Source: Nanobdellota archaeon (GTDB lineage Archaea > Nanobdellota > Nanobdellia > Woesearchaeales > JAHWHD01). Taken from it: DNA of 20,683 bases. A program made the translations under genes and the position numbers. The stretch is taken from the NCBI GenBank assembly GCA_034722435.1, contig JAYENX010000004.1, positions 1 to 20,683 of the forward strand, written 5' to 3'. Below are positions 10,905-12,791 of the stretch, in pieces; positions within the stretch are counted from its first letter, which is position 1, and each line of letters opens with the position of its first letter. The notes below the pieces were generated by a model. The model was given only the letters and a program-made list of their open reading frames with translations. It made no database searches and was not told the DNA's origin.

Positions 10905-10931
10905 AAAAAGGTGGCTCCTTTCGAAGCCACC
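10905..10931 (-). terminator. GC-rich hairpin with GAAA tetraloop plus U5 tract (terminator/attenuator-like)
   Basis: Minus strand GGUGGCUUC-GAAA-GGAGCCACC-UUUUU: 9-bp stem with one G-U pair. Confidence 0.6.
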
Positions 10932-11015
10932 GGACAAACACTCAGTTGTGGGGGTCTATATGTTATATAGAATTTGGGTGTTTCGCCCTTGATAAGTAAC
11001 AAAAAGATTAACTAG

Positions 11016-11098: not shown

Positions 11099-11473
11099 AT
11101 GACATCTACAGAACAATTAGCTAAATTAGTGAAAAATTACGGCTGGCATGAGTTTCCAGTTCTTTCAAGTCCTCAATTAGATGTTTTACTTGCTAAGGAT
11201 GTTATTGATCATAAAGATGGGTCTGTTAACCGTGTTAGAATAAATTCTATTGATAAAGGAACATTAAAAATGCGAGATATTACTTGGTATATAAGCAATG
11301 CATATAGAACTTTTATTAACACAGGCGGTCGCGGTTATGCTCAATCAAGATTACCTGTTTATTCAAAATTACTAGGTACTAAACCAAAAATTACTGGTAA
11401 TAAAGCTGTTTATGACCTTGGTGAACGAGGTAAAGTAGAGATAGATTTCTTCTCTGTAAGGGATAGTCGATAA
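11099..11473 (+). CDS. Hypothetical protein (124 aa)
   Basis: ORF with a correctly spaced BRE/TATA promoter; no family recognised. Confidence 0.75.
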   Translation: MTSTEQLAKLVKNYGWHEFPVLSSPQLDVLLAKDVIDHKDGSVNRVRINSIDKGTLKMRDITWYISNAYRTFINTGGRGYAQSRLPVYSKLLGTKPKITGNKAVYDLGERGKVEIDFFSVRDSR

Positions 11474-11474
11474 T

Positions 11475-11482
11475 TTTATATA
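11475..11482 (+). promoter_or_regulatory. TATA box for candidate ncRNA
   Basis: TTTATATA; first T is 30 nt from G11505, the first base of the GC hairpin. Confidence 0.5.
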
Positions 11483-11502
11483 CAAAATTATATTTTACAT
11501 TT

Positions 11503-11576
11503 ATGCCCTGCCTTAAACTCCTCGAACCAGCCTTCGGGCTTGTAATGAACTGGAGTGAGTAGCAGGGCGTTATTTT
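11503..11576 (+). ncRNA. Candidate kink-turn small RNA, H/ACA-like pseudouridylation guide lacking a canonical ACA box
   Basis: P1 AUGCCCUGC/GCAGGGCGU; pocket CUUAA and GAGUA; P2 ACUCC/GGAGU; K-turn (GA at 11524-25; AAU bulge + GA at 11544-48); C-stem ACCAGCC-UUCG-GGCUUGU; followed by a U tract. Confidence 0.55.
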
Positions 11577-11582
11577 ATAGCT

Positions 11583-12281
11583 TTATTTTAAAACTTTAAA
11601 CCCTGATAATTCTCCCTCTTTATCTAACATTTCAGCACTCTTAATATCAATTTTAGAATTAAGTTTATTCTTTATTAACCATAAATCTGAAGGAATAATT
11701 TTAACTTTATCAAGTTCATCTAATTTATACCATTTAAGAGGCTGACTTCCTTTAAAGTCTGTACTTGTAATTTTAACTTTTGTAAAAAACAAAATAAAAC
11801 TAAATTTGATAATATCATTACTCTCAACTCTTTCATGTAAAACACTATTAGTAGAAACAAATTTAGAATCTAATGAAGTCATGTCCTTGACTAACCTTAT
11901 TGTTGATTCTTCAAAGTTTTCCTCGAGAAGCATTTTACCTCCTATTAAACCCCAATATCCTTTGTAAGGTCTTCTCTCTCTTTTTGTTAGCAATATATTC
12001 ATATCATTATCCATGACAGCCACTAACACAACTGGTAAAGGACTTAATTCGCTATCACAAATATGTGTTAAGACAGGTAAATACCTTTCTGCTTTATCGG
12101 TTAGAGAATAAAAATTATTTGTCTTCTCTAGCAGACCTTCTTTAACCATACAATCTAGATGATAAGCTACCATGTTAGATCGTATCTTGATACTTTTTTC
12201 AATCTCGCCGAATTTAAGTTTTGCATTCTTTTTGAACAACTTAAAGATATTTTCTCTTTCCTTTTTATCCAACCCTTTCAT
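11583..12281 (-). CDS. Winged-HTH + degenerate Nudix domain protein, probable transcriptional regulator (NrtR-like domains in reversed order)
   Basis: LKFGEIEKSIKIRSNMVAYHLDCMVKEGLLEK wHTH; GYWGLIGGK...EENFEESTIRLVKDMTSL is a Nudix box lacking the catalytic RE-xx-EE glutamates. Confidence 0.75.
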   Translation of the reverse strand: MKGLDKKERENIFKLFKKNAKLKFGEIEKSIKIRSNMVAYHLDCMVKEGLLEKTNNFYSLTDKAERYLPVLTHICDSELSPLPVVLVAVMDNDMNILLTKRERRPYKGYWGLIGGKMLLEENFEESTIRLVKDMTSLDSKFVSTNSVLHERVESNDIIKFSFILFFTKVKITSTDFKGSQPLKWYKLDELDKVKIIPSDLWLIKNKLNSKIDIKSAEMLDKEGELSGFKVLK

Positions 12282-12314: not shown

Positions 12315-12332
12315 TTGTTGAGCCTTAACAAT
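12314..12332. promoter_or_regulatory. Candidate operator (imperfect 8-3-8 inverted repeat)
   Basis: ATTGTTGA-GCC-TTAACAAT, one mismatch, between the TATA box and the Nudix hydrolase ATG. Confidence 0.45.
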
Positions 12333-12335
12333 CAT

Positions 12336-12791
12336 ATGAAAGAAAAAGCACATTATATTGCTGTAACAGGCATCATCAAAAAAGAAGGTAAATATCTTAT
12401 CTGTAAACGAAGTCCGAATGAAAAAGCATTTCCGAACAAATGGTGTGTACCTGGCGGTAAAATTGAACAAAAAGATTTTATAAATACAAAAAAAGATACA
12501 AGTAATCACTGGTTTGGTATATTTGAAAAAACGTTAAGAAAAGAGATTAAAGAGGAAACAAATCTTGAAATAAAAAATATAGGTTATGTTGCCAATGGCG
12601 CATTCATAAGACCTAACGGATTCTCTACAATTATAGTAAGCCTTTGCGCAGATCATGCTGAAGGTAATGTAATCCTAAAAAAAGATGAACTAACTGAGTA
12701 TGCTTGGGTAACTTTAGAAGAAGCTAAACAATATGACCTTATAGAAAATATCTATGAACAAATTGAAAAAGTAGATTCTATGCTTACTTAG
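12336..12791 (+). CDS. Nudix hydrolase
   Basis: YLICKRS...KWCVPGGKIE...LRKEIKEETNL (Nudix box with an internal insertion)...EYAWVTLEE. ATG 12336 is preferred over TTG 12315 on TATA spacing. Confidence 0.85.
   Translation: MKEKAHYIAVTGIIKKEGKYLICKRSPNEKAFPNKWCVPGGKIEQKDFINTKKDTSNHWFGIFEKTLRKEIKEETNLEIKNIGYVANGAFIRPNGFSTIIVSLCADHAEGNVILKKDELTEYAWVTLEEAKQYDLIENIYEQIEKVDSMLT

What the first reader, a model, noticed from the sequence alone, without database searches (positions are those of the whole stretch)
11475..11580. Kink-turn small RNA resembling an ACA-less H/ACA guide aimed at the 23S rRNA H69/H71 junction
Seen: a GC-rich hairpin in an AT-rich spacer, with its own TATA (11475-82) at the same 30-nt spacing as neighbouring promoters. 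Architecture is lower stem / pocket (CUUAA, GAGUA) / upper stem / K-turn / cUUCGg loop, with the K-turn oriented as in archaeal H/ACA RNAs. The pocket rule predicts substrate 5'-ACUC-psi-N-UUAAG-3'. Known from memory: eukaryotic and some archaeal LSU rRNAs read GACUCUCUUAAGGUAG here, fitting with exactly two unpaired bases; the U is E. coli position ~1923, pseudouridylated in yeast (psi2266). Pairing can extend to 9 bp (CUGCCUUAA with UUAAGGUAG). There is no ACA/ANA at the canonical distance (AUU instead); ACA-less guides are known in Pyrobaculum. Inference: a possibly undescribed non-canonical guide RNA in DPANN, predicting a eukaryote-like H69 modification.
Basis: partly seen in the sequence, partly recalled or inferred. 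Interest (0 to 1): 0.78.

Follow-up and report, generated by a model that had tools for sequence, protein, structure and literature searches.

The report
ACA-less pseudouridine guide RNA for 23S H69
This roughly 70-nt gene in a Woesearchaeota-type (DPANN) archaeon very likely encodes a small guide RNA that directs one uridine-to-pseudouridine change in helix 69 of the large ribosomal RNA; it is built like a classic H/ACA guide but lacks the ACA anchor box.

Summary
Window 11503-11578 (+) is a stable hairpin: lower stem, internal loop, upper stem, K-turn, UUCG loop. It has a TATA-like box 30 nt upstream and a T-run just downstream.

Covariance models found the same RNA in 14 of 151 sampled genomes of the order (13 lineages), in unrelated gene contexts. 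Twelve of 18 base pairs show compensatory changes. The loop strands CUUAA and GAG and the K-turn 3' UGA never change.

By the H/ACA rule, the loop pairs with 5'-ACUC-U-C-UUAAG-3'. This occurs once in the organism's own 23S, at U1966 (E. coli U1923, H69 stem). All 50 sampled 23S genes of the order keep this sequence. The equivalent uridine is pseudouridine in yeast (2266), human (3749) and Sulfolobus islandicus (U2066).

Cbf5 with its PUA domain, Nop10 and L7Ae are encoded; Gar1 was not detected.

No ACA/ANA box sits at the canonical position in 10 of 13 lineages. A second, double-hairpin H/ACA RNA in the same genomes keeps ACA in 6 of 6.

Verdict: a real guide-RNA gene and a new variant of a known kind, with lower stem kept and ACA lost. 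No expression or modification data could be obtained.

The parts
11475..11482 (+). TATA-like promoter box TTTATATA, 30 nt upstream of the first paired base
   Evidence: All 13 lineages have a match of at least 6/8 starting between -33 and -27, and the position profile peaks at -30.
11503..11578 (+). Predicted sRNA gene (about 68-76 nt). The 5' end is inferred at A11503-G11505 and the 3' end in or after the T-run 11573-11576.
   Evidence: Fold. Covariance-model matches: 108.9 bits (R1), 85.9 bits (R2), 74.8 bits (R3). The ends are inferred; no transcript data.
11505..11511 (+). Lower stem, 5' strand GCCCUGC. A11503-U11504 can add two more pairs with G11569-U11570.
   Evidence: helix 1 is 100% paired in 14 sequences, and 2 pairs show compensatory changes.
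11512..11516 (+). 5' pocket strand CUUAA (5' guide). It pairs with 23S UUAAG, LSU 1968-1972 (E. coli 1925-1929).
   Evidence: CUUAA is invariant in 14/14 sequences. Target match.
11517..11521 (+). Upper stem, 5' strand ACUCC
   Evidence: 4 of 5 pairs show compensatory changes. The pocket-closing pair A11517-U11556 is unpaired in 7 of 14 sequences.
11522..11551 (+). K-turn module. Non-bulged strand: UC-GA (GA at 11524-11525). C stem: 11526-11532 with 11537-11543, capped by UUCG (11533-11536). Bulge: AAU (11544-11546). Then GA (11547-11548) and ACU.
   Evidence: The 3' UGA is invariant and the 5' GA is present in 13/14 sequences. All 6 C-stem pairs covary. Orientation matches both hairpins of the ACA-bearing H/ACA RNA of the same genome.
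11552..11556 (+). Upper stem, 3' strand GGAGU
11557..11561 (+). 3' pocket strand GAGUA (3' guide). GAGU pairs with 23S ACUC, LSU 1962-1965 (E. coli 1919-1922).
   Evidence: GAG is invariant in 14/14 sequences; the fourth base is U in 9 sequences (8 lineages) and A in 5 sequences (4 lineages).
11562..11568 (+). Lower stem, 3' strand GCAGGGC
11569..11578 (+). 3' tail GUUAUUUUAU: no ACA/ANA at the canonical 14-16 nt spacing, and a T-run that probably terminates transcription

Best explanation
The locus encodes an independently transcribed single-hairpin small RNA that acts as a box H/ACA-type pseudouridylation guide.

Proposed mechanism:
- L7Ae binds the K-turn.
- Cbf5-Nop10 sits on the lower stem and the pocket.
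- The two pocket strands pair with 23S rRNA on either side of U1966 (E. coli U1923, 3' strand of the helix 69 stem). GAG(U) pairs with (A)CUC and (C)CUUAA pairs with UUAAG(G).
- This leaves U1966 and C1967 unpaired at the top of the pocket, the typical 'UN' geometry, so Cbf5 isomerises U1966 to pseudouridine.
- The RNA has no ACA box, so Cbf5 would be held only by the 7-9 bp GC-rich lower stem, Nop10-L7Ae contacts and the substrate duplexes.

Shown here: the structure, its conservation and covariation, the unique complementarity to the own 23S, and the presence of the protein genes.

Inferred: transcription, RNP assembly and the modification itself.
For: 1. Stable hairpin.

2. Conservation. 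The RNA was found in 14 of 151 sampled genomes of the order, 12 of 143 genera. The search converged: R2 and R3 return the same set, with a gap from 55 bits down to 24 bits.

3. Covariation. On the 14-sequence alignment, 93% of cells are paired against 45% or less for slid controls. Twelve of 18 pairs show double changes, and 0 of 500 shuffles do as well.

4. Invariant guide elements. The pocket strands CUUAA and GAG and the K-turn 3' UGA never change, while every apical-stem pair varies.

5. Target. It is unique in the own rRNA operon, with 9 Watson-Crick pairs and a chance of about 1%. The same 23S sequence occurs in all 50 sampled genomes of the order that hold that part of 23S, including 7 that carry the guide.

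6. The site is a known pseudouridine. Yeast Psi2258 = E. coli 1915, so Psi2266 (snR84) = E. coli 1923; human has Psi3749 (PMC2794176). S. islandicus 23S-U2066 is the same site and is guided by sR148 (PMC11077068).

7. Geometry fits the published H/ACA model (PMC4652768). The lower stem is 7-9 bp, the GA stem is 9-10 layers (published range 8-11), and the 3' guide is 5-6 nt.

8. Machinery. Cbf5 carries DKCLD, TruB_N, TruB_C_2 and PUA domains, and Nop10 and L7Ae are present.

9. Positive control. The same descriptor and target logic picked out a canonical ACA-bearing H/ACA RNA in the same genome. Its second hairpin matches UAAC-UAUA-ACUCUC at E. coli 1915/1917 in the 'UNUN' mode known for H. volcanii sR-h45 (PMC7075261).

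10. ACA is experimentally dispensable for typical single-hairpin 'UN' guides, in vivo and in vitro (PMC7075261).

11. Independent gene. A TATA-like box lies at -27 to -33 in all lineages, a U-rich tract follows the hairpin, and synteny is not conserved.
Against: - No ACA/ANA at the canonical spacing in the window RNA or in 10 of 13 lineages. ACA mutation abolishes detectable Cbf5 binding in gel shifts (PMC7075261).
- The duplex on the 3' side of the pocket is only 3-4 bp (5 in G129), and that side is reported to be the more important one (PMC7075261).
- The pocket-closing pair is unpaired in half of the sequences.
- Gar1 was not detected, in a genome estimated 94.5% complete.
- The target sequence is invariant across the order, yet the guide was found in only about 9% of sampled genera. 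The modification would therefore be dispensable, or guided otherwise elsewhere.
- No guide-target covariation test is possible because the target never varies. The U/A change at the fourth base of the 3' guide is not compensated in 23S.
Confidence: 0.75

Rival explanations
1. A K-turn/L7Ae-binding small RNA that pairs with the H69 region of pre-23S rRNA as a folding or assembly chaperone without catalysing pseudouridylation. Alternatively, a decayed guide that still binds but no longer positions Cbf5.
For: There is no ACA anchor and the 3'-side duplex is short, at 3-4 bp. Gar1 was not detected. The closing pair is degenerate.
Against: The pocket strands are invariant across 13 lineages and flank exactly a U-N dinucleotide in the typical geometry. 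The GA-stem and lower-stem lengths fit the catalytic RNP model (PMC4652768). The same site is a real guided pseudouridine in Sulfolobus and yeast (PMC11077068, PMC2794176). ACA-less typical guides are active (PMC7075261).
Confidence: 0.1
2. A genuine Cbf5 guide whose real substrate is another RNA (a tRNA, another sRNA or an mRNA), with the 23S match being coincidental.
For: Only 9-10 bp of complementarity, with a chance match rate of about 1% per pocket. Archaeal H/ACA RNAs are known to hit tRNAs and crRNAs (PMC11077068).
Against: The 23S site is the only all-Watson-Crick 9-bp hit in the rRNA operon. It lies in an invariant sequence at a position that is pseudouridylated in three other lineages. 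No better candidate was seen, but tRNAs and mRNAs were not scanned systematically.
Confidence: 0.07
3. A cis-acting hairpin (terminator or 3'-UTR stabiliser) between convergent genes, with no trans function.
For: In the window it sits between convergent ORFs and is followed by a T-run. In 8 of 14 loci a same-strand ORF ends 21-424 nt upstream (within 50 nt in 6 of them).
Against: Flanking genes and their orientations differ among loci, and in 5 or more loci the upstream ORF is on the other strand. A TATA-like box is kept at -30. An internal loop with invariant sequence, a conserved K-turn and covarying stems are not properties of archaeal terminators, which need only oligo-T (established knowledge).
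Confidence: 0.03

Closest known systems
Classic archaeal single-hairpin box H/ACA sRNAs (e.g. Pyrococcus Pab91/Pf9, Archaeoglobus Afu46, S. islandicus sR115/sR435)
   Same: Lower stem of 7-9 bp. Internal pseudouridylation pocket with bipartite antisense strands flanking an unpaired U-N. Upper stem carrying a K-turn with tandem GA pairs 9-10 layers above the pocket. Genes for Cbf5, Nop10 and L7Ae are present.
   Different: No ACA/ANA trinucleotide 14-16 nt from the pocket. The 3' tail is a variable, U-rich sequence. The 3' guide duplex is short, at 3-4 bp.
Atypical H/ACA-like sRNAs of Pyrobaculum (sR203-210) and Sulfolobus islandicus (sR109, sR136, sR148, sR563)
   Same: They lack the ACA box, keep the K-turn hairpin and guide rRNA pseudouridines. 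S. islandicus sR148 guides the very same site (23S-U2066 = yeast Psi2266 = E. coli 1923), using only a 6-bp duplex.
   Different: Those RNAs also lack the lower stem, so their pocket is open-ended. The RNA here keeps a strongly conserved GC-rich lower stem and a closed pocket. No sequence relationship was tested.
Haloferax volcanii sR-h45 and its ACA-to-UGU / ACA-deleted single stem-loop mutants (Majumder et al. 2020, PMC7075261)
   Same: The engineered ACA-less single stem-loop guides with a typical unpaired 'UN' remain active in vivo and in vitro. The natural RNA here has that design. The same genome also carries an sR-h45-like double hairpin whose second hairpin uses the 'UNUN' mode on E. 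coli 1915/1917 and keeps ACA.
   Different: Those are laboratory mutants with different target sites (2605; 1940/1942). Here the ACA-less state is natural and conserved across lineages.
Yeast snR84, the eukaryotic H/ACA snoRNA for 25S Psi2266 (human 28S Psi3749 is the same site)
   Same: Same target nucleotide in the H69 stem.
   Different: Eukaryotic two-hairpin H/ACA architecture with H and ACA boxes and no K-turn. No homology is implied.

Membership tests
Classic archaeal box H/ACA sRNA | Hairpin with a lower stem of about 7-9 bp below an internal loop | tested here: met
   7 bp, or 9 with A11503-U11570 and U11504-G11569. Helix 1 is 100% paired in 14 sequences. Range taken from PMC4652768.
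Classic archaeal box H/ACA sRNA | K-turn or K-loop (tandem sheared G-A pairs) in the upper stem, with a GA stem of 8-11 layers | tested here: met
   GA at 11524-11525 faces AAU-GA at 11544-11548. Nine nt on the 5' strand and 10 on the 3' strand run from the closing pair to the second G-A. The motif is conserved in 13-14 of 14 sequences. Orientation is as in the ACA-bearing RNA of the same genome. L7Ae binding itself was not tested.
Classic archaeal box H/ACA sRNA | Bipartite pocket strands complementary to a target on both sides of an unpaired U-N | tested here: met
   ACUC-UC-UUAAG at LSU 1966, unique in the operon, with a chance of about 1.2%. Across lineages the two sides give 3-5 bp plus 6 or more bp.
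Classic archaeal box H/ACA sRNA | ACA (ANA) box 14-16 nt 3' of the pocket-closing pair | tested here: not met
   The window has UAU/AUU at that position. Ten of 13 lineages have no ANA. ACA occurs only in G036 (spacing 14) and G129 (spacing 13), and AUA in G001 (spacing 12). About 0.5 such ACAs would be expected by chance (my estimate).
Classic archaeal box H/ACA sRNA | Assembly with Cbf5, Nop10, L7Ae and Gar1 | not testable with these tools
   Genes for Cbf5 (with PUA), Nop10 and L7Ae are present. Gar1 (PF04410) was not detected even at E = 10. The model also failed to score over its cut-off in Sulfolobus in the control set.
Classic archaeal box H/ACA sRNA | Pseudouridine present at the predicted target | not testable with these tools
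   Uncultured organism, and no modification data.
Atypical H/ACA-like sRNA (Pyrobaculum / Sulfolobus type) | Absence of the ACA box | tested here: met
Atypical H/ACA-like sRNA (Pyrobaculum / Sulfolobus type) | Absence of the lower stem (open pseudo-pocket with free 5' and 3' guide strands) | tested here: not met
   A conserved, covarying lower stem of 7-8 bp is present in all 14 sequences.
Any Rfam family (release 15) | Score at or above the family's gathering threshold | tested here: not met
   No hit at gathering thresholds in the window. With E up to 10 on 11440-11620, only chance-level hits appear.

The most novel reading that the evidence does not exclude
In this Woesearchaeales clade a closed-pocket H/ACA guide has lost the ACA box while a second guide in the same cells keeps it. 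The ACA-less RNA uses the typical 'UN' mode. The ACA-bearing hairpin uses the atypical 'UNUN' mode on E. coli U1915/U1917. This would be a natural counterpart of the laboratory rule that ACA is needed only for atypical reactions. It would also imply a mode of Cbf5 anchoring that relies on the unusually sequence-conserved GCCCUG/CAGGGC lower stem, or on the U-rich tail, instead of PUA-ACA recognition. That would make this RNA an evolutionary intermediate between classic guides and the stem-less atypical guides of Crenarchaeota.
Probability: 0.3. Interest if true: 0.6.

Novelty: new variant of a known kind. Interest (0 to 1): 0.48.

Why it matters
Archaeal pseudouridine guides are currently sorted into two kinds: classic (lower stem plus ACA) and atypical (neither). 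This family keeps the lower stem but has no conserved ACA, so it fills the gap between them.

It also provides natural, evolutionarily conserved support for the in vitro and in vivo result that ACA is dispensable for typical guides. The contrast with the ACA-bearing guide in the same genomes sharpens that point.

It adds a DPANN lineage to the organisms predicted to modify the H69-stem uridine that contacts P-site tRNA. That site is shared with eukaryotes and Sulfolobus.

It gives annotators a covariance-model-ready family for genomes where no such RNA is annotated.

The claim is testable with a simple reconstitution. It is not a new principle of RNA-guided modification.

Tried and rejected
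- **Rfam.** Nothing at gathering thresholds. Only chance-level hits at E up to 10.
- **Minus-strand reading, rejected.** It folds almost as well, but the GA/UGA K-turn motifs and the G-U pairs exist only on the + strand. The minus-strand pocket has no all-Watson-Crick target of 9 bp.
- **Box C/D sRNA, rejected.** There are no C (RUGAUGA) or D (CUGA) boxes.
- **MAFFT alignment of the first homologues.** It misaligned the 5' half, so I built a single-sequence covariance model and realigned instead.
- **Searches of the single-genome families of G014 and G131.** They added nothing.
- **Pattern scans of genome contigs and metagenome contigs.** They returned only sequences already found, or one identical to G131.
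- **Guide-target covariation.** Impossible, because the 23S target is invariant in 50 of 50 genomes, and several carrier MAGs lack 23S.
- **Target of the first hairpin of the second H/ACA RNA.** No rRNA match. Two genomic matches (on C25 and C44) are at chance level, and C44 has no Rfam hit.
- **Gar1.** No PF04410 match even at E = 10.
- **Earlier scan notes for this genome.** They mention C/D sRNAs and an L7Ae leader, but nothing on this locus that changed my reading.

Full report
**1. The observation**

Window 11440-11620 holds a GC-rich hairpin in a 109-nt spacer. The spacer lies between ORF 11099-11473 (+, 124 aa, no Pfam family) and ORF 11583-12281 (-, 232 aa, weak HTH plus NUDIX). The + strand folds at -30.7 kcal/mol, z = -3.96.

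Read 5' to 3', the parts are:
- lower stem GCCCUGC (11505-11511) with GCAGGGC (11562-11568);
- pocket strands CUUAA (11512-11516) and GAGUA (11557-11561);
- upper stem ACUCC with GGAGU;
- a K-turn, with 5' strand UC-GA followed directly by the apical stem, and 3' strand apical stem-AAU-GA-ACU;
- a UUCG tetraloop;
- the tail GUUAUUUUAU.

TTTATATA lies 30 nt upstream of G11505. No Rfam family matches.

**2. The organism and the machinery**

The window is contig C4 of a 1.30-Mb, 33% GC genome in 60 contigs, estimated 94.5% complete. Public records of relatives that carry the same RNA are titled "Candidatus Woesearchaeota archaeon". Some are titled, probably wrongly, "uncultured Methanosarcinales archaeon".

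The genome encodes:
- a full-length Cbf5 with DKCLD, TruB_N, TruB_C_2 and PUA domains;
- Nop10;
- L7Ae.

Gar1 (PF04410) was not found even at E = 10. That model is weak on some archaea in the control set, so I do not read this as absence.

**3. The target**

By the H/ACA rule, the substrate reads 5'-[complement of the 3' pocket strand]-U-N-[complement of the 5' pocket strand]-3'. The pocket therefore predicts (U)ACUC-U-N-UUAAG.

The own 23S (C56:44505-47466, minus strand) reads ...UAACUAUAACUCUCUUAAGGUAGC.... It matches ACUC-UC-UUAAG once, with the target U at LSU 1966. Counting from the UAACUAUAAC loop of H69, this is E. coli U1923, in the 3' strand of the H69 stem.

Yeast Psi2258 and Psi2260 correspond to E. 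coli 1915 and 1917. Yeast Psi2266 (snR84; human Psi3749) is therefore the same nucleotide, and it contacts the P-site tRNA D-stem (PMC2794176).

The site is also a documented archaeal pseudouridine. S. islandicus 23S-U2066 is annotated as the equivalent of yeast Psi2266. It is lost when the atypical guide sR148 is deleted (PMC11077068, Table 1 and text).

Shuffled or random 5+5 pockets reach 9 or more Watson-Crick pairs somewhere on the 6.7-kb operon in 1.2% of trials. The match alone is therefore suggestive, not decisive.

**4. Relatives**

BLAST found copies in a congener (G001, two near-identical copies) and in G014. I built a single-sequence covariance model (R1) and two rounds of rebuilding (R2; R3). 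Between them they found the RNA in 14 of 151 sampled genomes of the order, 12 of 143 genera. The set stopped growing, and scores drop from 55 bits or more to 24 bits. A sample of the wider class gave nothing convincing outside the order.

On the 14-sequence alignment A5:
- 93% of cells are paired, against 28-45% when partners are slid;
- 12 of 18 pairs carry compensatory double changes;
- no shuffle out of 500 reaches the observed values.

All six apical-stem pairs, four of five upper-stem pairs and two lower-stem pairs covary. In contrast, the 5' pocket CUUAA (usually CCUUAA), the first three bases of the 3' pocket (GAG) and the 3' UGA of the K-turn are invariant. Variable stems with fixed loop strands are the signature of a guide RNA with a fixed target.

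The alignment was fitted to the model, which favours pairing. The slid controls and the explicit compensatory pairs (for example GCC/GGC, CGC/GCG, UCC/GGA, CCC/GGG in the apical stem) do not depend on that.

Two things argue against parts of the drawn structure. The pocket-closing pair (A11517-U11556 here) is unpaired in 7 of 14 sequences. The fourth base of the 3' guide is A instead of U in five sequences (four lineages), which leaves only 3 bp on that side.

**5. An independent gene, not a terminator**

Every lineage has a match of at least 6/8 to TTTAWATA starting 27-33 nt before the first paired G, and the positional profile peaks at -30. Every copy is followed within a few nucleotides by a U-rich tract. 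Neighbouring ORFs and their orientations differ from locus to locus.

**6. The ACA box**

The published model places ACA/ANA 14-16 nt 3' of the closing pair (PMC4652768, PMC2377435). Here the 3' pocket strand plus the lower stem take 12-13 nt. What follows differs by lineage: GUUAUU (window), AUAAUU, GCCUUU, AAUUCU, AACUUU, GCAUUU, AACUUA, UACAUU, UUUAUU, CCAUUC, UUCUUU and ACAAUU.

Only G036 (U-ACA, spacing 14) and G129 (ACA, spacing 13) have ACA, and G001 has AUA at spacing 12. About 0.5 chance ACAs would be expected in 13 AT-rich tails (my estimate), so I cannot say the two are functional or ancestral. The family is, in effect, ACA-less.

**7. An internal control in the same genome**

A descriptor scan for lower stem, pocket, upper stem and K-turn over the whole genome gave only three GC-rich candidates of this kind outside a tRNA-like hit. 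They are the window RNA and two adjacent hairpins at C16:9804-9958.

That double-hairpin RNA is conserved in own, G001, G002, G014, G131 and G102 at 78-90% identity. Its lower stems covary and its pockets are fixed. An ACA follows the second hairpin in 6 of 6 genomes.

With four unpaired target bases, its second hairpin has one match in the operon: UAAC-UAUA-ACUCUC at LSU 1958, which is E. coli U1915/U1917. This is the 'UNUN' mode described for H. volcanii sR-h45 SL2 (PMC7075261).

Both of its K-turns have the same strand orientation as the window RNA, and the second hairpin (the one counted) has the same 9-nt 5' GA-stem count. So these organisms do use ACA-bearing guides. The absence of ACA in the window family is specific to that RNA.

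**8. Can it work without ACA?**

Majumder et al. (PMC7075261) showed that ACA-to-UGU or ACA-deleted single stem-loop guides still produce pseudouridine in vivo and in vitro. This holds when the target has the typical unpaired UN and the spacing is 17 nt or less. ACA is required for UNUN targets, for a paired N and for long spacing.

The window RNA is of the first type, and the ACA-bearing hairpin of the same genome is of the second. That concordance is my main reason to think the ACA-less state is functional and not decay.

The known natural ACA-less guides (Pyrobaculum; S. islandicus sR109, sR136, sR148 and sR563) have also lost the lower stem (PMC4652768, PMC11077068). This family has not. 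Its lower stem is unusually conserved in sequence, with GC.CUG nearly invariant (the third base, a C, is U in one sequence). I leave that unexplained; it may reflect a need for a strong Cbf5 platform.

**9. Weaknesses**

- There are no transcript or modification data.
- The 3'-side duplex is short.
- Gar1 was not detected.
- The target sequence is invariant in all 50 sampled genomes of the order that hold this part of 23S, 7 of them carriers. The guide's patchy distribution, about 9% of genera, therefore means the modification is either dispensable or made otherwise in most relatives. It also means guide-target covariation cannot be tested.
In all but one other lineage that side gives only 6-7 bp (G129: 8).

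**10. Use of restricted genomes**

G001, G002 and G133 are flagged as unpublished by the tool.
- G001 contributes one of the 13 lineages, the AUA tail and one of the 23S checks.
- G002 contributes one of six rows of the second RNA's alignment.
- G133 contributes one of the 50 23S matches.

No conclusion depends on them alone.

**11. Verdict**

This is a real, conserved, independently transcribed K-turn hairpin RNA with the architecture and target complementarity of an H/ACA pseudouridine guide for 23S U1966 (E. coli 1923). It fails one defining feature of the classic family (ACA) and one of the atypical family (no lower stem). I therefore file it as a new variant of a known kind: it works like an H/ACA guide (confidence about 0.75), but membership in either described class is not met in full.

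Noticed in passing
G000:C16:9804-9958 (+) = L057:805-959: An unannotated double-hairpin H/ACA sRNA, conserved in six genomes. ACA follows the second hairpin in 6/6. That hairpin matches 23S UAAC-UAUA-ACUCUC (E. coli U1915/U1917) in the 'UNUN' mode of H. volcanii sR-h45 SL2. No Rfam hit. The hinge reads CCA in this genome but ACA in four relatives.
   Followed up: partly
G000:C16:9804-9875 (first hairpin of that RNA): The pocket strands AUGGGUC and (A/C)CACUC are conserved, but I found no rRNA target. The E. coli 2605 region of this 23S reads GAGACAGUUUGUUUGAUAUC and does not fit. Two genomic matches to GAGUG-N-GACCC (on C25 and C44) are at chance level.
   Followed up: partly
whole genome G000: Gar1 (PF04410) was not detected even at E = 10, although Cbf5, Nop10 and L7Ae are present. 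It could be a divergent Gar1, a gap in the assembly or a true loss.
   Followed up: partly
window 11505-11511 / 11562-11568 and homologues: The lower-stem sequence GCCCUG...CAGGGC is nearly invariant across families whose apical stems have changed at every pair. This is more constraint than pairing alone would require.
   Followed up: no
L055:1501-1570 (G014:C81:3852-3921, +): A weak covariance-model hit (25 bits) to another K-turn-like hairpin in a relative. It may be a further guide RNA.
   Followed up: no
L066:1501-1581 (-) (G240:C20:10249-10329): A genome of another order in the class has a single-hairpin RNA with the same pocket as the second hairpin of the C16 RNA (GAGAAUACUC ... GAGAGUUAGUG) and an ACA box. 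The U1915/U1917 guide is therefore more widespread than the window family.
   Followed up: no
window 11583-12281 (-) and 12315-12791 (+): Two divergently oriented NUDIX-domain genes lie next to each other. The first has a weak N-terminal ArsR-like HTH match.
   Followed up: no
window 10909-10957: A second GC-rich island in non-coding sequence upstream of ORF 11099-11473. It is not a tRNA and was not examined further.
   Followed up: no
L049, L050, L053 (record titles): Three MAGs in the same GTDB order as the Woesearchaeota record are titled 'uncultured Methanosarcinales archaeon' in their public records. This is probably a labelling error.
   Followed up: no
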